A DNA stretch of 32,000 nt, taken from NCBI GenBank assembly GCA_016840465.1, contig JAEOSH010000001.1, positions 88,763-120,762 of the forward strand, written 5' to 3'. The first letter of the stretch is position 1. Every line of letters starts with the position of its first letter. Positions 7,182 to 23,077 of this stretch are shown piece by piece. The translations under genes were made by a program, and so were the position numbers. The notes below the pieces were generated by a model. That model was not told the DNA's origin, made no database searches, and saw nothing but the letters and a program-made list of their open reading frames with translations. Source of the stretch: Candidatus Baldrarchaeum yapensis (GTDB lineage Archaea; Asgardarchaeota; Baldrarchaeia; Baldrarchaeales; Baldrarchaeaceae).

Positions 7182-7500
7182 TCACAACTTCACCAATCCA
7201 CTTCAAGTAGTCTTCTAATCCGTCGATTATCGGTAGAATAATTGCTTCAGGAACCTCATAAGGATGTTCCTTCTTTATGACAGAGATTGCAGATTTTGAT
7301 TTCTTTTTTGTTGTTTTTATCATGAGCACGTATTCAACTGCCTCTTCTATCTTTCCTTCCCACCAATAGAGGGATTTAGCATTTTCTAATATGCTAACAC
7401 ATGCAACTAATTTCCTGTCTAGCAACACCTTGGCGATTCTCAATGCTGATTCTCTAGAGGGTGTTGTGGTAATTATTAATACGTATTCTGGCGTTTCCAT
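7150..7500 (-). CDS. cutA: CutA divalent-cation tolerance protein
   Basis: LVACVSI, SLYWWEGKIEE, HPYEVPE, YLKWI; GGTGA RBS before ATG 7500. Confidence 0.93.
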   Translation of the reverse strand: METPEYVLIITTTPSRESALRIAKVLLDRKLVACVSILENAKSLYWWEGKIEEAVEYVLMIKTTKKKSKSAISVIKKEHPYEVPEAIILPIIDGLEDYLKWIGEVVNDKEEASSIR

Positions 7501-7579
7501 AATCATCACCGGAATGCATTTCAGAAAGTTACTTATGAAGGTGGTGATATTTCTTCATGTTTGGCGTCAAGGTGGTTTC

Positions 7580-8746
7580 ATGATTGAGGCTTTCATCTAT
7601 ATACTCATCTTTTGGGCGACAATCGCAATGGTTTCGTCAATGATAGACCTGCGTAAGTATAATATTGAAGTATATCCTTTCGTCCTGAGCTTTAAGACAA
7701 AAAGACTCAATACCTTCATAAACAAGATTTCTACAAAGTATGTTTCCGTATGGAGAAAAATATGGACCGTCGGCGTTGTTATTTCACTATGCTTAATGGT
7801 ATTCGCAGTTTATTTGCTAATCGATAACCTAGTTGCAAGTTTTGAGTCGAGACCTATAACACCCGTTGCACCTTTAATTCCTGGGATTACAATAACGGGT
7901 TACACGCTGATATATGCACTTCTTGGAATCACAATAACAGCAATTTCGCACGAGCTTGCTCATGGAATCGCAGCAGGATCGGAGGGATTGAGAGTAAAAA
8001 GCACAGGATTGATAGTAATTGGGGTGTTATTTGGGGCGTTTGTTGAACTTGATGATAGGGAAGTAAAAAAACTAAGCCCTAAAAGGAGATTATACGTATT
8101 CTCCGCTGGCTCGGCATCAAACGTTGTTATCGCATTTCTCTTTCTTGCTCTAATAGCGACATTTCCCCTAATCATAAGCCCTATTTACAACACCTCCCCT
8201 ACCGGAGTCGTCGTTGTAGAATTGGTGAGCGATGGACCTGCGTATAAGGCTGGCATCACGAAGGGGGATGTTATAACGCACATAAATAATACTCCCATAA
8301 ACGGCGTTAACGATCTTAACAAGATTCTATCCAGAACATCTCCTAATGACACTGTAGTGGTAAGTACGCTGAGAGGGAATTTCACTGTAAGGTTATCTCC
8401 TTGTCCACGGAATTCATCGCGTGGTTATCTTGGAGTTTACGTTTTTGATTATTATAGTTCCAGAGTGCCCCTCCTTGAGAGCATTCTTACTCCTCTGTTT
8501 CCCTACCACATTTATGAAACTTTGCTATGGACGTTCATGATTTCCTTTAGTGTTGCGCTCTTTAATATGTTACCCATACCTCCCTTTGATGGTGATAGAC
8601 TCTTAGCGTCAATTCTTGAAGCGTTTAATATCAGGAAGAACATAAGAAACTACGTAAGGGTGACTGTTGCATGTATTTGTACTATTCTACTGCTATTAAA
8701 CATCATATTTACCTTTATGTCGTTTGGAATTGTGATTTTCTCGTAA
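7580..8746 (+). CDS. Site-2 (M50) intramembrane metalloprotease with PDZ domain
   Basis: HELAHG (HExxH), FNMLPIPPFDGD, PDZ-like GPAYKAGITKGDVI; several hydrophobic segments; GGTGG RBS before ATG 7580. Confidence 0.92.
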   Translation: MIEAFIYILIFWATIAMVSSMIDLRKYNIEVYPFVLSFKTKRLNTFINKISTKYVSVWRKIWTVGVVISLCLMVFAVYLLIDNLVASFESRPITPVAPLIPGITITGYTLIYALLGITITAISHELAHGIAAGSEGLRVKSTGLIVIGVLFGAFVELDDREVKKLSPKRRLYVFSAGSASNVVIAFLFLALIATFPLIISPIYNTSPTGVVVVELVSDGPAYKAGITKGDVITHINNTPINGVNDLNKILSRTSPNDTVVVSTLRGNFTVRLSPCPRNSSRGYLGVYVFDYYSSRVPLLESILTPLFPYHIYETLLWTFMISFSVALFNMLPIPPFDGDRLLASILEAFNIRKNIRNYVRVTVACICTILLLLNIIFTFMSFGIVIFS

Positions 8747-8836
8747 ATATATGCAAGCCTTCCACTTGAGATAATTAGCGATTTTGGTTTTTGTTGCTTG
8801 ACTCTTCACACAAGAAATATGGCATCAGACGTTAAG

Positions 8837-8843
8837 TTTATAT
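8837..8843 (+). promoter_or_regulatory. TATA box for the permuted 5S precursor
   Basis: TTTATAT ends about 25 nt upstream of G8868, the first base of the precursor closing stem. Confidence 0.6.
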
Positions 8844-8867
8844 GGAGGCTCAACTTCCGCAATTACT

Positions 8868-9027
8868 GGTGCAACGCCGCGTGAGAGTTAAGCCTCCGCA
8901 CGTTCCCGGGAGTACTGTCCTCCGCGAGGGGACGGGAAACCGGGAAGCTGCTCACCCACATGGGTGGGCGGCCATAGTGCGGAGGGCAACACCCGTTCCC
9001 ATTCCGACCACGGAACGGCGTTGCACC
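8868..9027 (+). other. BHB processing stem of the 5S precursor (hBHBh')
   Basis: 12-bp perfect stem 8868-8879/9016-9027; bulge GAA 9013-9015; 4-bp helix CGTG 8880-8883/CACG 9009-9012; bulge AGA 8884-8886; inner helix 8887-8889/9006-9008. Confidence 0.92.
8886..9014 (+). rRNA. rrf: 5S rRNA, circularly permuted gene (3' half 8886-8957, ACAT linker, 5' half 8962-9014)
   Basis: 5' half GGGCGGCCATAG..GGGCAACACCCGTTCCCATTCCGACCACGGA; 3' half AGTTAAGCC..GAGTA..GCGA loop..GGAAA. Helices I-V all pair (I 8947-8957/8962-8972; II 8977-8985/8893-8901; V 8903-8909/8940-8946). Confidence 0.95.
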
Positions 9028-9100
9028 GCTCCTTCTAATACTTTATAAGTGGTGTCGGATACAAGTAATAACCATGAGCGATGATAAGATGCCGTAGAGG

Positions 9101-10261
9101 ATGATAATTGTGCAACCACTTGTTCAGGAAGAGAGCACATTTGTACAATGGCTGATATTGTTATTCTTCATGATATCCATATTTATGTCAATGTTTTATG
9201 AGAAGATTAGATTTTCCGCTGGAATCAGACAGATAAAGATGGAGTTAATGAAGTTGGAAAGGCTCGCGAAAAACGGAAAAGAGTTGGTAATAAATGCAGT
9301 AAAGGAAATAGGGAAGCCCGGGTTTGATCCAAGTAATAGAATCTTAGAGTTCTTAGAGTTCTTTATGATAGAGCCAGTAGATAGAGATCCTTTTGGTATC
9401 ATGAAAAAGCTAGAGCATCTGATTAATCTGAGAAGGGACGTTTTCCGCAGGTTTCTATCTGAAGTCGCGCCAAATGCGTCGAGGGATGAACGTGCAAACC
9501 TGGAGGGCGCATTAGAGGCCACAATTGTGATAGATTACTTATTTAGACTTGTGAGGCATTATTTGATACTCAGCGAGAGAACTAAGAGTTACATTCTAGT
9601 TGCACAACTGCAGTTGCAACTACCGCTTGTGATGAGATATGCAAAGGCGTACTTTGAGGCTTTAAAGGCATTTAAAGATGGAAAACCGATAGGAGATGGT
9701 ATAGGTGTACTTGTGGCAACGAAATTCGTGTACGATCTTGCGAAGGACGGAGAAAGTAGGGTGACCTTTAAGGAAATCGTAGAAGATACATTGGTTACCG
9801 AGGTAATGTTTGAGGGACGAAAGATTTTCGTTGTAAGAGCAAAGGGACCTGGAGCGTTCGTTGGAAAGCCAGGCGATGCAATTGTTAAAATCATAGAAGA
9901 CTGTAAAGGAAAAAATGACATATCTAGGATCATTATGATCGATGCTGCATTGAAACTTGAAGGAGAGCGTAGCGGTGAGGTTGCTGAGGGTGTTGGGGCA
10001 GCAATAGGTGGCATAGGTGTTGACAGGTTTAAGATAGAGGAAATAGCTACAAAATATGGGATTCCTCTTGATGCAATAATAATTAAGGAGTCCCTAGAGG
10101 AGGCCATTAGCCCACTCAAAAAGGAGATTTTTGAGAGTGTAAATGAGGTAATAAAAAGAATAAAAAGAATTATTCTCCAGTCGACAAAACCCGGGGATGC
10201 AATCATACTTGCTGGTATTGGTAATGCTGCTGGGATAGGCTTCATGAAGCTTTCTTCCTGA
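9101..10261 (+). CDS. DUF1512-family conserved archaeal protein
   Basis: N-terminal TM segment; FFMIEPVDRDPFGI, IGDGIG, IDAALKLEGE, GGIGVDRFKIEE resemble the family as recalled. Confidence 0.75.
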   Translation: MIIVQPLVQEESTFVQWLILLFFMISIFMSMFYEKIRFSAGIRQIKMELMKLERLAKNGKELVINAVKEIGKPGFDPSNRILEFLEFFMIEPVDRDPFGIMKKLEHLINLRRDVFRRFLSEVAPNASRDERANLEGALEATIVIDYLFRLVRHYLILSERTKSYILVAQLQLQLPLVMRYAKAYFEALKAFKDGKPIGDGIGVLVATKFVYDLAKDGESRVTFKEIVEDTLVTEVMFEGRKIFVVRAKGPGAFVGKPGDAIVKIIEDCKGKNDISRIIMIDAALKLEGERSGEVAEGVGAAIGGIGVDRFKIEEIATKYGIPLDAIIIKESLEEAISPLKKEIFESVNEVIKRIKRIILQSTKPGDAIILAGIGNAAGIGFMKLSS

Positions 10262-22885: not shown

Positions 22886-22979
22886 GCCGCCGTAGCTCAG
22901 TTGGTAGAGCGCCGGACTGCCGTTTAGGTCCGGAATCGTAATCCGGCGGTCCCGGGTTCAAATCCCGGCGGCGGCTCCA
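22886..22979 (+). tRNA. tRNA-Thr(CGT) with 18-nt intron at position 32/33 (22918-22935)
   Basis: GCCGCCG/CGGCGGC, U73, CCA; strict BHB with CCGG 22912-22915/22930-22933 and bulges ACT and AAT; spliced loop CU CGU AA. Confidence 0.95.
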
Positions 22980-22987
22980 TCACCCGT

Positions 22988-23077
<90 letters not shown>

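What the first reader, a model, noticed from the sequence alone, without database searches (positions are those of the whole stretch)
8868..9027. Circularly permuted 5S rRNA gene encoded like a BHB intron
Seen: the 3' half of 5S rRNA (8886-8957) lies upstream of the 5' half (8962-9014). The unit sits in a 12-bp perfect stem (GGTGCAACGCCG/CGGCGTTGCACC) with a textbook BHB (bulges AGA and GAA, 4-bp CGTG/CACG helix). Established: archaeal splicing endonuclease cuts after the 2nd nt of each bulge, here G8885|A8886 and A9014|A9015. Joining 9014 to 8886 gives CCAUUCCGACCACGGA|AGUUAAGCC, the normal 5S sequence, with the seam in the two-A bulge of helix III (E. coli A52/A53). Helix III cannot form in the precursor because CACG 9009-9012 is paired to the leader, so splicing switches the fold. 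Permuted genes are known for tRNAs (Thermofilum pendens) and SRP RNA (Thermoproteus); I know of no permuted 5S gene but could not search the literature. Standard 5S models could miss or split this gene.
Basis: partly seen in the sequence, partly recalled or inferred. Interest (0 to 1): 0.97.

Follow-up and report, generated by a model that had tools for sequence, protein, structure and literature searches.

The report
Back-to-front 5S rRNA gene, splice-repaired
This Asgard (Baldrarchaeia) archaeon writes its only 5S ribosomal RNA gene back part first, inside a tRNA-splicing signal that should cut the transcript and rejoin it, probably as a ring. Most Asgard lineages do the same, which explains why their 5S genes look missing.

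Summary
Window 8868-9027 holds the 3' part of 5S rRNA (8886-8957), an ACAU loop joining the native ends (8958-8961) and the 5' part (8962-9014). A 12-bp stem and a canonical bulge-helix-bulge (BHB) motif enclose them.

Re-permuted in silico, the sequence matches a profile of canonical Asgard 5S end to end (E 9e-18) and folds as a textbook 5S. The genome (96% complete) has no other 5S. Rfam sees only two sub-threshold halves.

A covariance model of the permuted unit hits 88 of 151 same-phylum genomes, including closed ones. All 12 outer-stem pairs and 3 of 4 central BHB pairs show compensatory changes. Six families keep a canonical gene instead, and no genome searched had both.

The genome encodes a catalytic plus a structural splicing-endonuclease subunit, and RtcB ligase.

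No RNA evidence could be obtained. No RNA run holds this sequence, and the run-search and read-laying tools then closed. Cleavage, ligation and the final form (129-nt circle, re-opened, or nicked) are therefore inferred.

I found no publication of this. This scan has already reported the same thing in at least 72 other genomes. New here are the Baldrarchaeia case, the canonical-5S families, and two further seam positions.

The parts
8837..8842 (+). TATA-like box TTTATA, 30 nt upstream of the leader stem (putative own promoter)
   Evidence: Read directly. Many relatives carry TTTAWA 27-36 nt upstream of their unit. Function is inferred.
8868..8879 (+). Leader: 5' strand of the 12-bp outer stem (BHB helix H1)
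   Evidence: Perfect complement of 9016-9027. All 12 outer-stem pairs show changes on both sides across 53 distinct sequences, with 87-90% of cells paired.
8880..8883 (+). CGUG: 5' strand of the 4-bp central BHB helix
   Evidence: Pairs with CACG 9009-9012. This helix is 94.8% paired across relatives, and 3 of its 4 pairs show compensatory changes.
8884..8886 (+). 5' bulge AGA; predicted cut G8885|A8886
   Evidence: Geometry shown. The cut position is inferred from the known behaviour of the archaeal splicing endonuclease.
8886..8957 (+). 3' part of 5S rRNA: helix III 3' strand, helix II 3' strand, helices V/IV with loops E and D, helix I 3' strand
   Evidence: nhmmer matches HMM positions 50-116 of canonical 5S at the corresponding genome coordinates. 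Also supported by the alignment and the fold.
8958..8961 (+). ACAU loop capping an 11-bp helix I (joins the native 3' and 5' ends)
   Evidence: Fold. In relatives the cap is mostly a UNCG tetraloop: 24 of 45 distinct hairpins.
8962..9014 (+). 5' part of 5S rRNA: helix I 5' strand, loop A, helix II 5' strand, loop B, helix III 5' strand, loop C, start of helix III 3' strand
   Evidence: nhmmer matches HMM positions 3-50. Rfam partial hit.
9009..9012 (+). CACG: 3' strand of the central BHB helix; the same bases belong to helix III in the mature fold
9013..9015 (+). 3' bulge GAA; predicted cut A9014|A9015
   Evidence: Geometry shown. The cut is inferred.
9016..9027 (+). Trailer: 3' strand of the outer stem

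Best explanation
Window 8868-9027 is the genome's single, functional 5S rRNA gene, circularly permuted at the DNA level.

Proposed pathway:
1. It is transcribed as its own unit from a TATA box about 30 nt upstream (inferred).
2. The leader and trailer pair into a 12-bp stem that presents a canonical helix-bulge-helix-bulge-helix motif (shown in sequence and by covariation).
3. The two-subunit splicing endonuclease encoded in this genome cuts in both 3-nt bulges, at 8885|8886 and 9014|9015 (inferred).
4. RtcB joins A9014 to A8886 (inferred). This creates a 129-nt covalently closed RNA with the universal ...CCACGGA-AGUUAAGCC... sequence of helix III and a normal 5S three-way-junction fold. Helix I is capped by ACAU instead of ending in free termini.

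I think the circle itself is most likely the form that enters the ribosome (about 55%).

The same design is the normal state of the 5S gene in most Asgard lineages: Baldr, Odin, Loki, Heimdall, Hod, Kari, Njord, Jord/Freya and Atabey.
For: Gene identity:
- End-to-end match of the re-permuted sequence to canonical Asgard 5S and a textbook fold.
- No other 5S in a 96%-complete genome.

BHB:
- Exact geometry.

Conservation:
- Model R1 finds full-length units in 88 of 151 phylum genomes, among them closed chromosomes that have no canonical 5S.
- 92.5% of cells are paired, against 58.9% in shuffles. 46 of 51 pairs change on both sides. Slid controls drop to 36-44% paired.

Junction:
- In two different BHB registers (CGUG-type and CCGA-type) the predicted junction rebuilds the same 5S sequence.

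Enzymes:
- Two EndA paralogs of 193 and 195 aa. The second lacks the catalytic His in the pairwise alignment.
- RtcB is present.

Support for a persistent closed helix I:
- Caps are mostly UNCG tetraloops.
- E. coli ribosomes work with 5S whose native ends are joined by a 4-nt connector (PMC7283268).

Precedent:
- The permuted SRP RNA of Thermoproteus is cut at a BHB and is circular when mature (PMC4731332).

Explains a published gap:
- 5S 'could not be predicted' in closed Heimdallarchaeum genomes (PMC8813620). Both of those genomes carry two permuted units.
Against: - There is no RNA-level evidence of any kind for this organism or its relatives. No RNA run holds the sequence.
- The BHB conformation is not the predicted minimum-energy fold: -90.4 versus -93.9 kcal/mol, with a competing UUCCG/CGGAA hairpin.
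- The alignment used for the pair counts was fitted to the model, which inflates pairing somewhat.
- This window's helix I cap (ACAU) is not one of the stable tetraloops that argue for a persistent cap elsewhere.
- A 2026 paper states that archaeal 5S, unlike 16S/23S, is not processed through circularisation (PMC12918454). That statement rests on non-Asgard isolates.
Confidence: 0.8

Rival explanations
1. The RNA is cut at the BHB and ligated to a circle, but the circle is only an intermediate. A second nuclease opens the helix I cap and trims it, giving a conventional linear 5S with native-like ends. This would resemble the classical model for archaeal circular pre-16S/23S.
For: Circular pre-16S/23S intermediates that are later re-linearised are the textbook archaeal pathway (PMC8339473, PMC12918454). 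This window's cap (ACAU, on an unusually long 11-bp helix I) is not a stabilising tetraloop.
Against: Across relatives the cap is short and strongly biased to UNCG tetraloops: 24 of 45 distinct hairpins, plus 4 YNCG-like. That bias looks like selection for a stable closed end rather than for a nuclease site, and no conserved sequence surrounds the cap. A joined helix I is compatible with ribosome function in E. coli. The one solved precedent, SRP RNA, stays circular.
Confidence: 0.2
2. The endonuclease releases the 129-nt RNA but it is never ligated. The ribosome uses a linear, permuted 5S whose ends sit in the A-bulge of helix III and are held together by base pairing.
For: The seam lies in an unpaired two-A bulge flanked by helices, where a nick might be tolerated. 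Fragmented and permuted rRNAs exist in organelles (PMC4267664, PMC9576764).
Against: RtcB is present, and in archaea it ligates BHB-cut ends generally, including excised introns and pre-rRNAs (PMC4731332, PMC12918454). Only 3 bp (GUU/AAC) would hold one side of the nick. In Thermoproteus, lack of circularisation impaired protein binding.
Confidence: 0.1
3. The locus is a rearranged relic or an assembly artefact, and the working 5S gene lies in an unassembled part of the genome.
For: The genome is a 100-contig draft, 96% complete, and rRNA genes are often missing from such assemblies.
Against: - The identical layout occurs in 88 related genomes, including closed chromosomes with no canonical 5S.
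- All helices covary, which indicates purifying selection on the structure.
- Several sequencing runs each hold all sampled words of the locus in their contigs, though some may be the source sample.
- Families with a canonical gene never showed a permuted one, and vice versa.
Confidence: 0.02

Closest known systems
Circularly permuted SRP RNA gene of Thermoproteus tenax / T. uzoniensis (Plagens et al. 2015, eLife, PMC4731332)
   Same: A universal, structured non-coding RNA whose gene is permuted. It has its own TATA promoter and a short leader. Leader and trailer form a BHB that is cut by the tRNA splicing endonuclease, with RtcB-type ligation. In both cases the gene was 'missing' from annotation for this reason. 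The mature SRP RNA is circular.
   Different: Here the RNA is a ribosomal RNA and the native ends are closed by a tetraloop-capped helix I. The trait spans most of a phylum rather than two species, and nothing has been shown at the RNA level.
Circularly permuted tRNA genes (Cyanidioschyzon merolae and other algae; Thermofilum pendens), matured through a BHB and a circular intermediate
   Same: The 3' half is encoded upstream of the 5' half, a BHB lies at the new ends, and maturation uses the splicing endonuclease and a ligase.
   Different: In tRNAs the circle is an intermediate that RNase P and tRNase Z re-open at the acceptor stem. For 5S no such re-opening activity is known, and the cap looks built to stay. 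This comparison rests partly on my own knowledge; only the citation in PMC4267664 was seen here.
Circularly permuted 23S rRNA of Pyrococcus furiosus / Thermococcus (PMC7758197; bioRxiv 10.64898/2026.03.23.713588) and circular 23S rRNA in archaeal ribosomes (PMC12918454)
   Same: BHB-dependent circularisation of an rRNA, with the circular or permuted form ending up in the ribosome.
   Different: In those cases the gene order is normal and the permutation arises during processing. Here the DNA itself is permuted, and circularisation is needed to restore the sequence.
Permuted mitochondrial 5S rRNAs (Valach et al. 2014, PMC4267664)
   Same: A 5S rRNA with rearranged order of its conserved parts that standard models miss.
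   Different: Those occur in organelles with no BHB or splicing-endonuclease system and have a different evolutionary context. I did not read that paper's details beyond the abstract.
Engineered cp5S in E. coli (Huang et al. 2020, PMC7283268)
   Same: Native 5S ends joined by a 4-nt connector, with new ends elsewhere, and the ribosomes work.
   Different: Those constructs are artificial and fused into 23S rRNA, with the new ends in loop C or loop D.

Membership tests
5S rRNA (Rfam RF00001) | Full-length sequence homology to 5S rRNA | tested here: met
   The re-permuted sequence scores E = 9.3e-18 over HMM positions 3-116 of nine canonical same-phylum 5S and is 56-69% identical to them.
5S rRNA (Rfam RF00001) | Three-way junction with helices I-V, loops A-E and the helix III A-bulge | tested here: met
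   The MFE fold of the re-permuted sequence (-70.4 kcal/mol; -68.7 for the 125-nt version without the cap loop) and of the circle (-64.6 kcal/mol, z = -5.1) reproduces the architecture. Helices I, II, IV and V covary.
5S rRNA (Rfam RF00001) | Genomic sequence reaches the family's gathering score (38 bits) | tested here: not met
   Scores are 25.7 and 15.8 bits for the two halves. The failure is caused by the permutation. The tools could not score a re-permuted sequence against RF00001 itself.
BHB (hBHBh') substrate of the archaeal splicing endonuclease | Two 3-nt bulges on opposite strands separated by a 4-bp helix, flanked by helices | tested here: met
   Central helix CGUG/CACG, bulges AGA and GAA, outer helix 12-13 bp, inner helix GUU/GAC 3 bp.
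BHB (hBHBh') substrate of the archaeal splicing endonuclease | The structure is maintained in evolution | tested here: met
   12 of 12 outer-stem pairs and 3 of 4 central pairs show compensatory changes across 53 distinct sequences. The alignment was fitted to the model.
BHB (hBHBh') substrate of the archaeal splicing endonuclease | The BHB is the favoured fold of the precursor | tested here: inconclusive
   The BHB fold is -90.4 kcal/mol and the MFE is -93.9 kcal/mol, with a competing hairpin.
BHB (hBHBh') substrate of the archaeal splicing endonuclease | Cleaved by the endonuclease at the bulges | not testable with these tools
   This needs an in vitro cleavage assay or RNA ends. The enzyme genes are present.
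Permuted non-coding RNA genes matured by BHB cleavage and ligation (permuted tRNAs, Thermoproteus SRP RNA) | 3' part encoded upstream of 5' part, with native ends joined by a short linker | tested here: met
Permuted non-coding RNA genes matured by BHB cleavage and ligation (permuted tRNAs, Thermoproteus SRP RNA) | Splicing endonuclease and RtcB ligase encoded in the genome | tested here: met
   PF01974/PF02778 twice and PF01139 once.
Permuted non-coding RNA genes matured by BHB cleavage and ligation (permuted tRNAs, Thermoproteus SRP RNA) | Junction-spanning RNA (circular or re-joined molecule) exists | not testable with these tools
   No RNA run holds the locus. The metagenome contig collection holds no junction form, but the contigs it returned were all longer than 1 kb, so it probably could not hold a 120-nt RNA.

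The most novel reading that the evidence does not exclude
In Baldrarchaeia and most other Asgard archaea, the 5S rRNA that sits in the ribosome is a covalently closed circle made by the tRNA-splicing machinery. Ribosome biogenesis in the closest archaeal relatives of eukaryotes would then depend on EndA/RtcB for all three rRNAs.

The 5S gene of this phylum has also been permuted more than once. At least three different seams exist, and the gene has switched between canonical and permuted order at least three times.
Probability: 0.5. Interest if true: 0.92.

Novelty: new variant of a known kind. Interest (0 to 1): 0.85.

Why it matters
5S rRNA is universal, and textbooks treat its gene as trivially recognisable. 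Here a whole phylum, the closest known archaeal relatives of eukaryotes, mostly encodes it in an order that cannot give a working RNA without cutting and rejoining.

- **Annotation.** It explains a published puzzle: 5S genes 'could not be predicted' in closed Heimdallarchaeum genomes (PMC8813620). Annotation pipelines need a permuted model, and genome-quality standards that count 5S are affected.
- **Ribosome biology.** It predicts a circular 5S rRNA in ribosomes. It also makes the tRNA-splicing endonuclease and RtcB essential for large-subunit assembly.
- **Evolution.** It provides a natural experiment on 5S end topology that parallels the engineered E. coli cp5S. The mix of canonical and permuted families, and the existence of several seams, gives a tractable case of how gene-level permutation of structured RNAs arises and reverts.

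It is directly testable in cultured Lokiarchaeia and in existing wetland metatranscriptomes.

Tried and rejected
RNA evidence:
- The first run search found six RNA runs, each holding only about 2 of 39 sampled words. These are probably conserved 5S words from other organisms and are no evidence.

Junction-form scans of metagenome contigs:
- A strict pattern for the joined form (5' part, junction, 3' part, cap, 5' part) gave 0 hits.
- A relaxed pattern gave 20 hits, about the number expected by chance. They included canonical 5S genes and three genes with other seams.
- All contigs returned were longer than 1 kb, so the collection probably cannot contain a 120-nt circle. This says nothing either way.

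Other negatives:
- Six bacterial hits of the genome contigs pattern are chance. None matches model R1.
- A weak Rfam C/D-box hit just upstream (8783-8855, 12 bits, E = 2.7) was rejected as noise.
- ORFs 8842-9048 (+) and 8952-9140 (-) overlap the gene but match no Pfam family and are taken as spurious.

Limits of what was done:
- The bacterial promoter/terminator scanner was not used, because it does not model archaeal promoters.
- The first IQ-TREE run timed out. A quick IQ-TREE search and FastTree were used instead.
- I could not attach NCBI names to the canonical-5S families, because handles reached through named loci carry no family code.
- Literature searches for 'permuted 5S' or 'circular 5S' with archaea or Asgard returned no report of this.

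Full report
**What is in the sequence**

- GGTGCAACGCCG (8868-8879) is the perfect complement of CGGCGTTGCACC (9016-9027).
- CGTG (8880-8883) pairs with CACG (9009-9012).
- AGA (8884-8886) and GAA (9013-9015) are 3-nt bulges on opposite strands, 4 bp apart.
- GUU (8887-8889) can pair with GAC (9006-9008).

A mechanical search for strict BHB geometry returns this as the best solution. It gives a 129-nt excised segment and the junction ACCACGGA|AGTTAAGCC.

Between the cuts lie three parts: the 3' part of 5S rRNA (8886-8957), four bases ACAU (8958-8961), and the 5' part (8962-9014).

**Is it really a 5S gene?**

Rfam at gathering threshold finds only three tRNAs in the window. At a loose threshold RF00001 gives two adjacent hits of 25.7 and 15.8 bits against a 38-bit cut-off. 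Those are the only RF00001 signals in the whole 2.27-Mb, 96%-complete genome.

After joining 8962-9014 to 8886-8957:
- The sequence folds into the textbook 5S three-way junction (-70.4 kcal/mol).
- It aligns end to end with nine canonical 5S rRNAs from other families of the same phylum at 56-69% identity. The join reproduces the universal GGAAGUUAAGC motif.
- An HMM built from those nine canonical genes alone scores it at E = 9.3e-18 over HMM positions 3-116, in a database made of the whole genome.

The genome itself yields only HMM 50-116 at C56:97648-97714, lying upstream of HMM 3-50 at 97728-97777. So this is a complete 5S sequence in rotated order, and the genome has no other.

Folded as a circle, the 129-nt product gives the same architecture (-64.6 kcal/mol, z = -5.1). 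The seam falls between the two unpaired A's of helix III.

**Surroundings**

- The unit lies in the 354-nt gap between an M50 peptidase/PDZ gene (7391-8746) and a DUF1512 gene (9101-10261).
- TTTATA sits at 8837-8842, 30 nt before the leader stem. Many relatives have TTTAWA 27-36 nt upstream of their unit. This fits an independent archaeal promoter whose transcript starts about at the stem.
- The genome encodes two splicing-endonuclease paralogs of 193 and 195 aa, 34% identical. Each has the N- and C-terminal domains.
- In their pairwise alignment the second paralog has GKDK where the first has GIDH. It therefore appears to lack the catalytic histidine, which suggests a catalytic plus structural pair. 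From my own knowledge, that enzyme type is associated with broad BHB specificity.
- RtcB is present.

**Relatives**

RF00001 on 40 relatives showed the same pair of adjacent sub-threshold hits in many genomes, and clean canonical hits in a few. By eye and by the BHB search, the double-hit loci have the same layout with different, complementary outer stems.

I built a covariance model (R1: 156 positions, 51 pairs) of the whole precursor. It gives full-length hits in 88 of 151 genomes sampled across the phylum.

On 53 distinct sequences aligned to R1:

| Measure | Observed | Shuffled control | Partner slid by 1-3 columns |
|---|---|---|---|
| Cells forming a standard pair | 92.5% | 58.9% | 36-44% |
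| Pairs with changes on both sides | 46 of 51 | 39.9 | 28-33 |

- All 12 outer-stem pairs covary.
- The central BHB helix is 94.8% paired, with compensatory changes at 3 of 4 pairs.
- Helix I is 99.3% paired.
- The alignment is fitted to the model, so these figures lean its way. The slid controls and the diversity of stems still make the conclusion safe.

In two different BHB registers (CGUG|AxA and CCGA|AAG), cutting after the second bulge base rebuilds the same 5S junction.

**Which organisms**

A degenerate pattern specific to the permuted order was scanned over one genome for each of 185,579 species.
- It returned 90 stretches, of which 80 were listed.
- 74 of the 80 are confirmed by R1.
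- The six bacterial ones are not confirmed, which matches the roughly six chance hits expected.

Record titles name Baldrarchaeota, Heimdallarchaeota (including both closed Heimdallarchaeum genomes, with two copies each), Hodarchaeota, Kariarchaeota, Njordarchaeota, Jordarchaeia/Freyarchaeota, Atabeyarchaeia and Promethearchaeia (Loki).

Three loci are labelled Crenarchaeota, Nitrososphaerota and Thermoproteota. They are identical to units of genomes that the genome tool places in the window's own phylum. I therefore found no case outside Asgard, at a pattern sensitivity of about 58%.

The two Baldrarchaeota records are the window's same-order relatives.

**Not all Asgard lineages are permuted**

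Families f7 (0 of 26 genomes with an R1 hit), f10, f12, f15, f23 and f26 carry a canonical 5S that passes Rfam's cut-off. In f15 it lies on the same 443-kb contig as SecY. No genome searched showed both forms.

I made a quick maximum-likelihood tree from SecY plus up to 13 neighbouring ribosomal-protein genes, for 41 genomes. Many taxa are represented by SecY only.
- The tree needs at least three changes of state, forced by well-supported branches.
- The canonical groups are (f10+f15), f12, (f26+f7) and f23.
- f23 is sister to the permuted Loki family f9.
- The root is unknown and the data are thin. I cannot choose between reversion, repeated permutation, and sorting of an ancestral pair of genes.

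**The mature form**

This step is inference. Three points favour a persistent circle.
1. Among 45 distinct helix I hairpins, the cap is UUCG in 16, UACG in 4 and UGCG in 4, with CUCG or CACG in 4 more. That is the signature of a stabilising cap, not of a processing site.
2. E. coli ribosomes function with 5S whose native ends are joined by a 4-nt connector (PMC7283268).
3. The only solved analogue, the permuted SRP RNA of Thermoproteus, is circular when mature, and unligated RNA binds its proteins poorly (PMC4731332).

Three points weigh against certainty.
1. This window's own cap, ACAU on an 11-bp helix I, is atypical.
2. The BHB fold is 3.5 kcal/mol above the predicted minimum, because UUCCG/CGGAA can form a competing hairpin.
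3. No RNA data could be examined. 

**Literature**

Full-text searches of PMC open-access papers and bioRxiv (to Oct-Nov 2026) for permuted or circular 5S in archaea or Asgard found no report.
- The nearest items are mitochondrial permuted 5S (PMC4267664) and processing-level permuted or circular 23S (PMC7758197, PMC12918454).
- PMC12918454 states explicitly that 5S is not among the circularised archaeal rRNAs.
- Wu et al. 2022 state that 5S 'could not be predicted' in their closed Heimdallarchaeum genomes.

The library lacks most subscription journals, so prior publication cannot be excluded.

**Relation to earlier work of this scan**

The scan's notebook already holds 89 findings of this kind in at least 72 genomes, all Asgard. 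None of the summaries I saw cites RNA evidence. This is therefore a re-discovery within the scan, not a first sighting.

- the Baldrarchaeia instance;
- quantified covariation;
- the tree-based minimum of three state changes;
- two further seam positions (below).

**Other seams**

The relaxed junction scan of metagenome contigs fortuitously caught three genes that are also rotated 5S, cut at other places.
- L235 has its seam at the 5' side of loop C (ACCCGGAC|CCAUCCGAA) and gives a 120-nt circle.
- L228 and L232 have theirs in loop B (UCGGAA|ACGCCCG) and give 119- and 121-nt circles.

Each has its own leader/trailer stem and a 4-bp helix with 3-nt bulges. After rotation each matches the canonical HMM end to end, at E = 2e-14, 3e-12 and 1e-14. 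The loop B type is 94% identical to a locus in a genome of the same phylum, family f32. So 5S permutation happened more than once in this phylum.

**Verdict**

The finding is real and conserved, and as far as I can tell unpublished. Mechanistically it is a new variant of a known kind: BHB-dependent maturation of permuted RNA genes. The decisive missing piece is RNA-level proof of the junction and of the final topology.

Noticed in passing
L235:1263-1382 (metagenome contig Ga0180437_10122887): A rotated 5S gene with a different seam, at the 5' side of loop C (ACCCGGAC|CCAUCCGAA). It has its own BHB-like flanks (CCGG/CCGG helix, bulges AAC and ACG). The 120-nt circle matches the canonical 5S HMM at E = 2.3e-14 after rotation. 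It is AT-rich and Loki-like.
   Followed up: partly
L228:281-400, L232:5100-5300 (-), L251 (G218:C63:7456-7668, family f32): A third seam, in loop B (UCGGAA|ACGCCCG or |AUACCCG), with a CCGA/UCGG central helix and AAA/AGA bulges. The circles are 119 and 121 nt and match the canonical HMM at E = 2.6e-12 and 1.4e-14. The same type is present in a same-phylum genome. 5S permutation therefore arose more than once in Asgard.
   Followed up: partly
L241, L242, L243, L248 (family f9), L074 (f21), L084 (f9): Permuted 5S genes that also carry a 30-35-nt insert between CCAUCCGAA (loop C) and CCCGGAA (helix III 3' strand), which looks like a nested BHB-type intron. L245 has an insert in helix IV/V and L249 has a much extended helix I.
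   Followed up: no
L023/L064 (CP147779, Atabeyarchaeia-1) and L028/L143 (CP147780, Atabeyarchaeia-2): A roughly 30-nt hairpin insert with a duplicated CGUGAGA sits at the 5' cut, and the hairpin sequence differs between the two genomes. After a first circularisation, CACG could pair with the second CGUG to form a second BHB. This suggests two rounds of splicing or alternative 5' sites.
   Followed up: no
L016, L030, L068, L069, L072 (family f5, Heimdallarchaeum and relatives): A hairpin of about 25-30 nt is inserted between the outer stem and the central BHB helix on the 5' side, so the motif is a relaxed BHB. The closed Heimdallarchaeum genomes each carry two permuted 5S units (L110/L150 and L120/L139).
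   Followed up: partly
L079 / L128:1272-1689 (family f14): A second, partial or insert-bearing copy of the permuted unit begins about 10-40 nt after the first (R1 34 bits). This is a tandem arrangement of the kind that could interconvert canonical and permuted orders.
   Followed up: no
Genomes G009, G012, G014, G041, G057, G088, G111 and others (loci L003-L011, L216-L220): Six same-phylum families (f7, f10, f12, f15, f23, f26) have a canonical 5S gene and no permuted one. A quick 14-marker tree needs at least 3 switches between the two states.
   Followed up: partly
SecY matches of G022, G032, G041 (family f15): There is an in-frame TAG inside an otherwise intact SecY in three genomes of one family. 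This may be stop-codon recoding, as a paper reports for some Asgard lineages (PMC9723677, title only seen).
   Followed up: no
SecY matches of families f8 and f18 (G010, G020, G039, G075 and others): SecY aligns in two or three separate pieces within a single 553-585-aa open frame, which suggests an insertion of about 70-100 residues in SecY of Jord/Freya-type archaea.
   Followed up: no
window 22886-22979 and 22988-23077: tRNA-Gly(GCC) carries a 21-nt insert in the anticodon-loop region. The adjacent tRNA scores only 35.5 bits in Rfam with a disrupted D-arm, while ARAGORN reads a longer tRNA-Phe there. It is probably a non-canonically placed intron.
   Followed up: no
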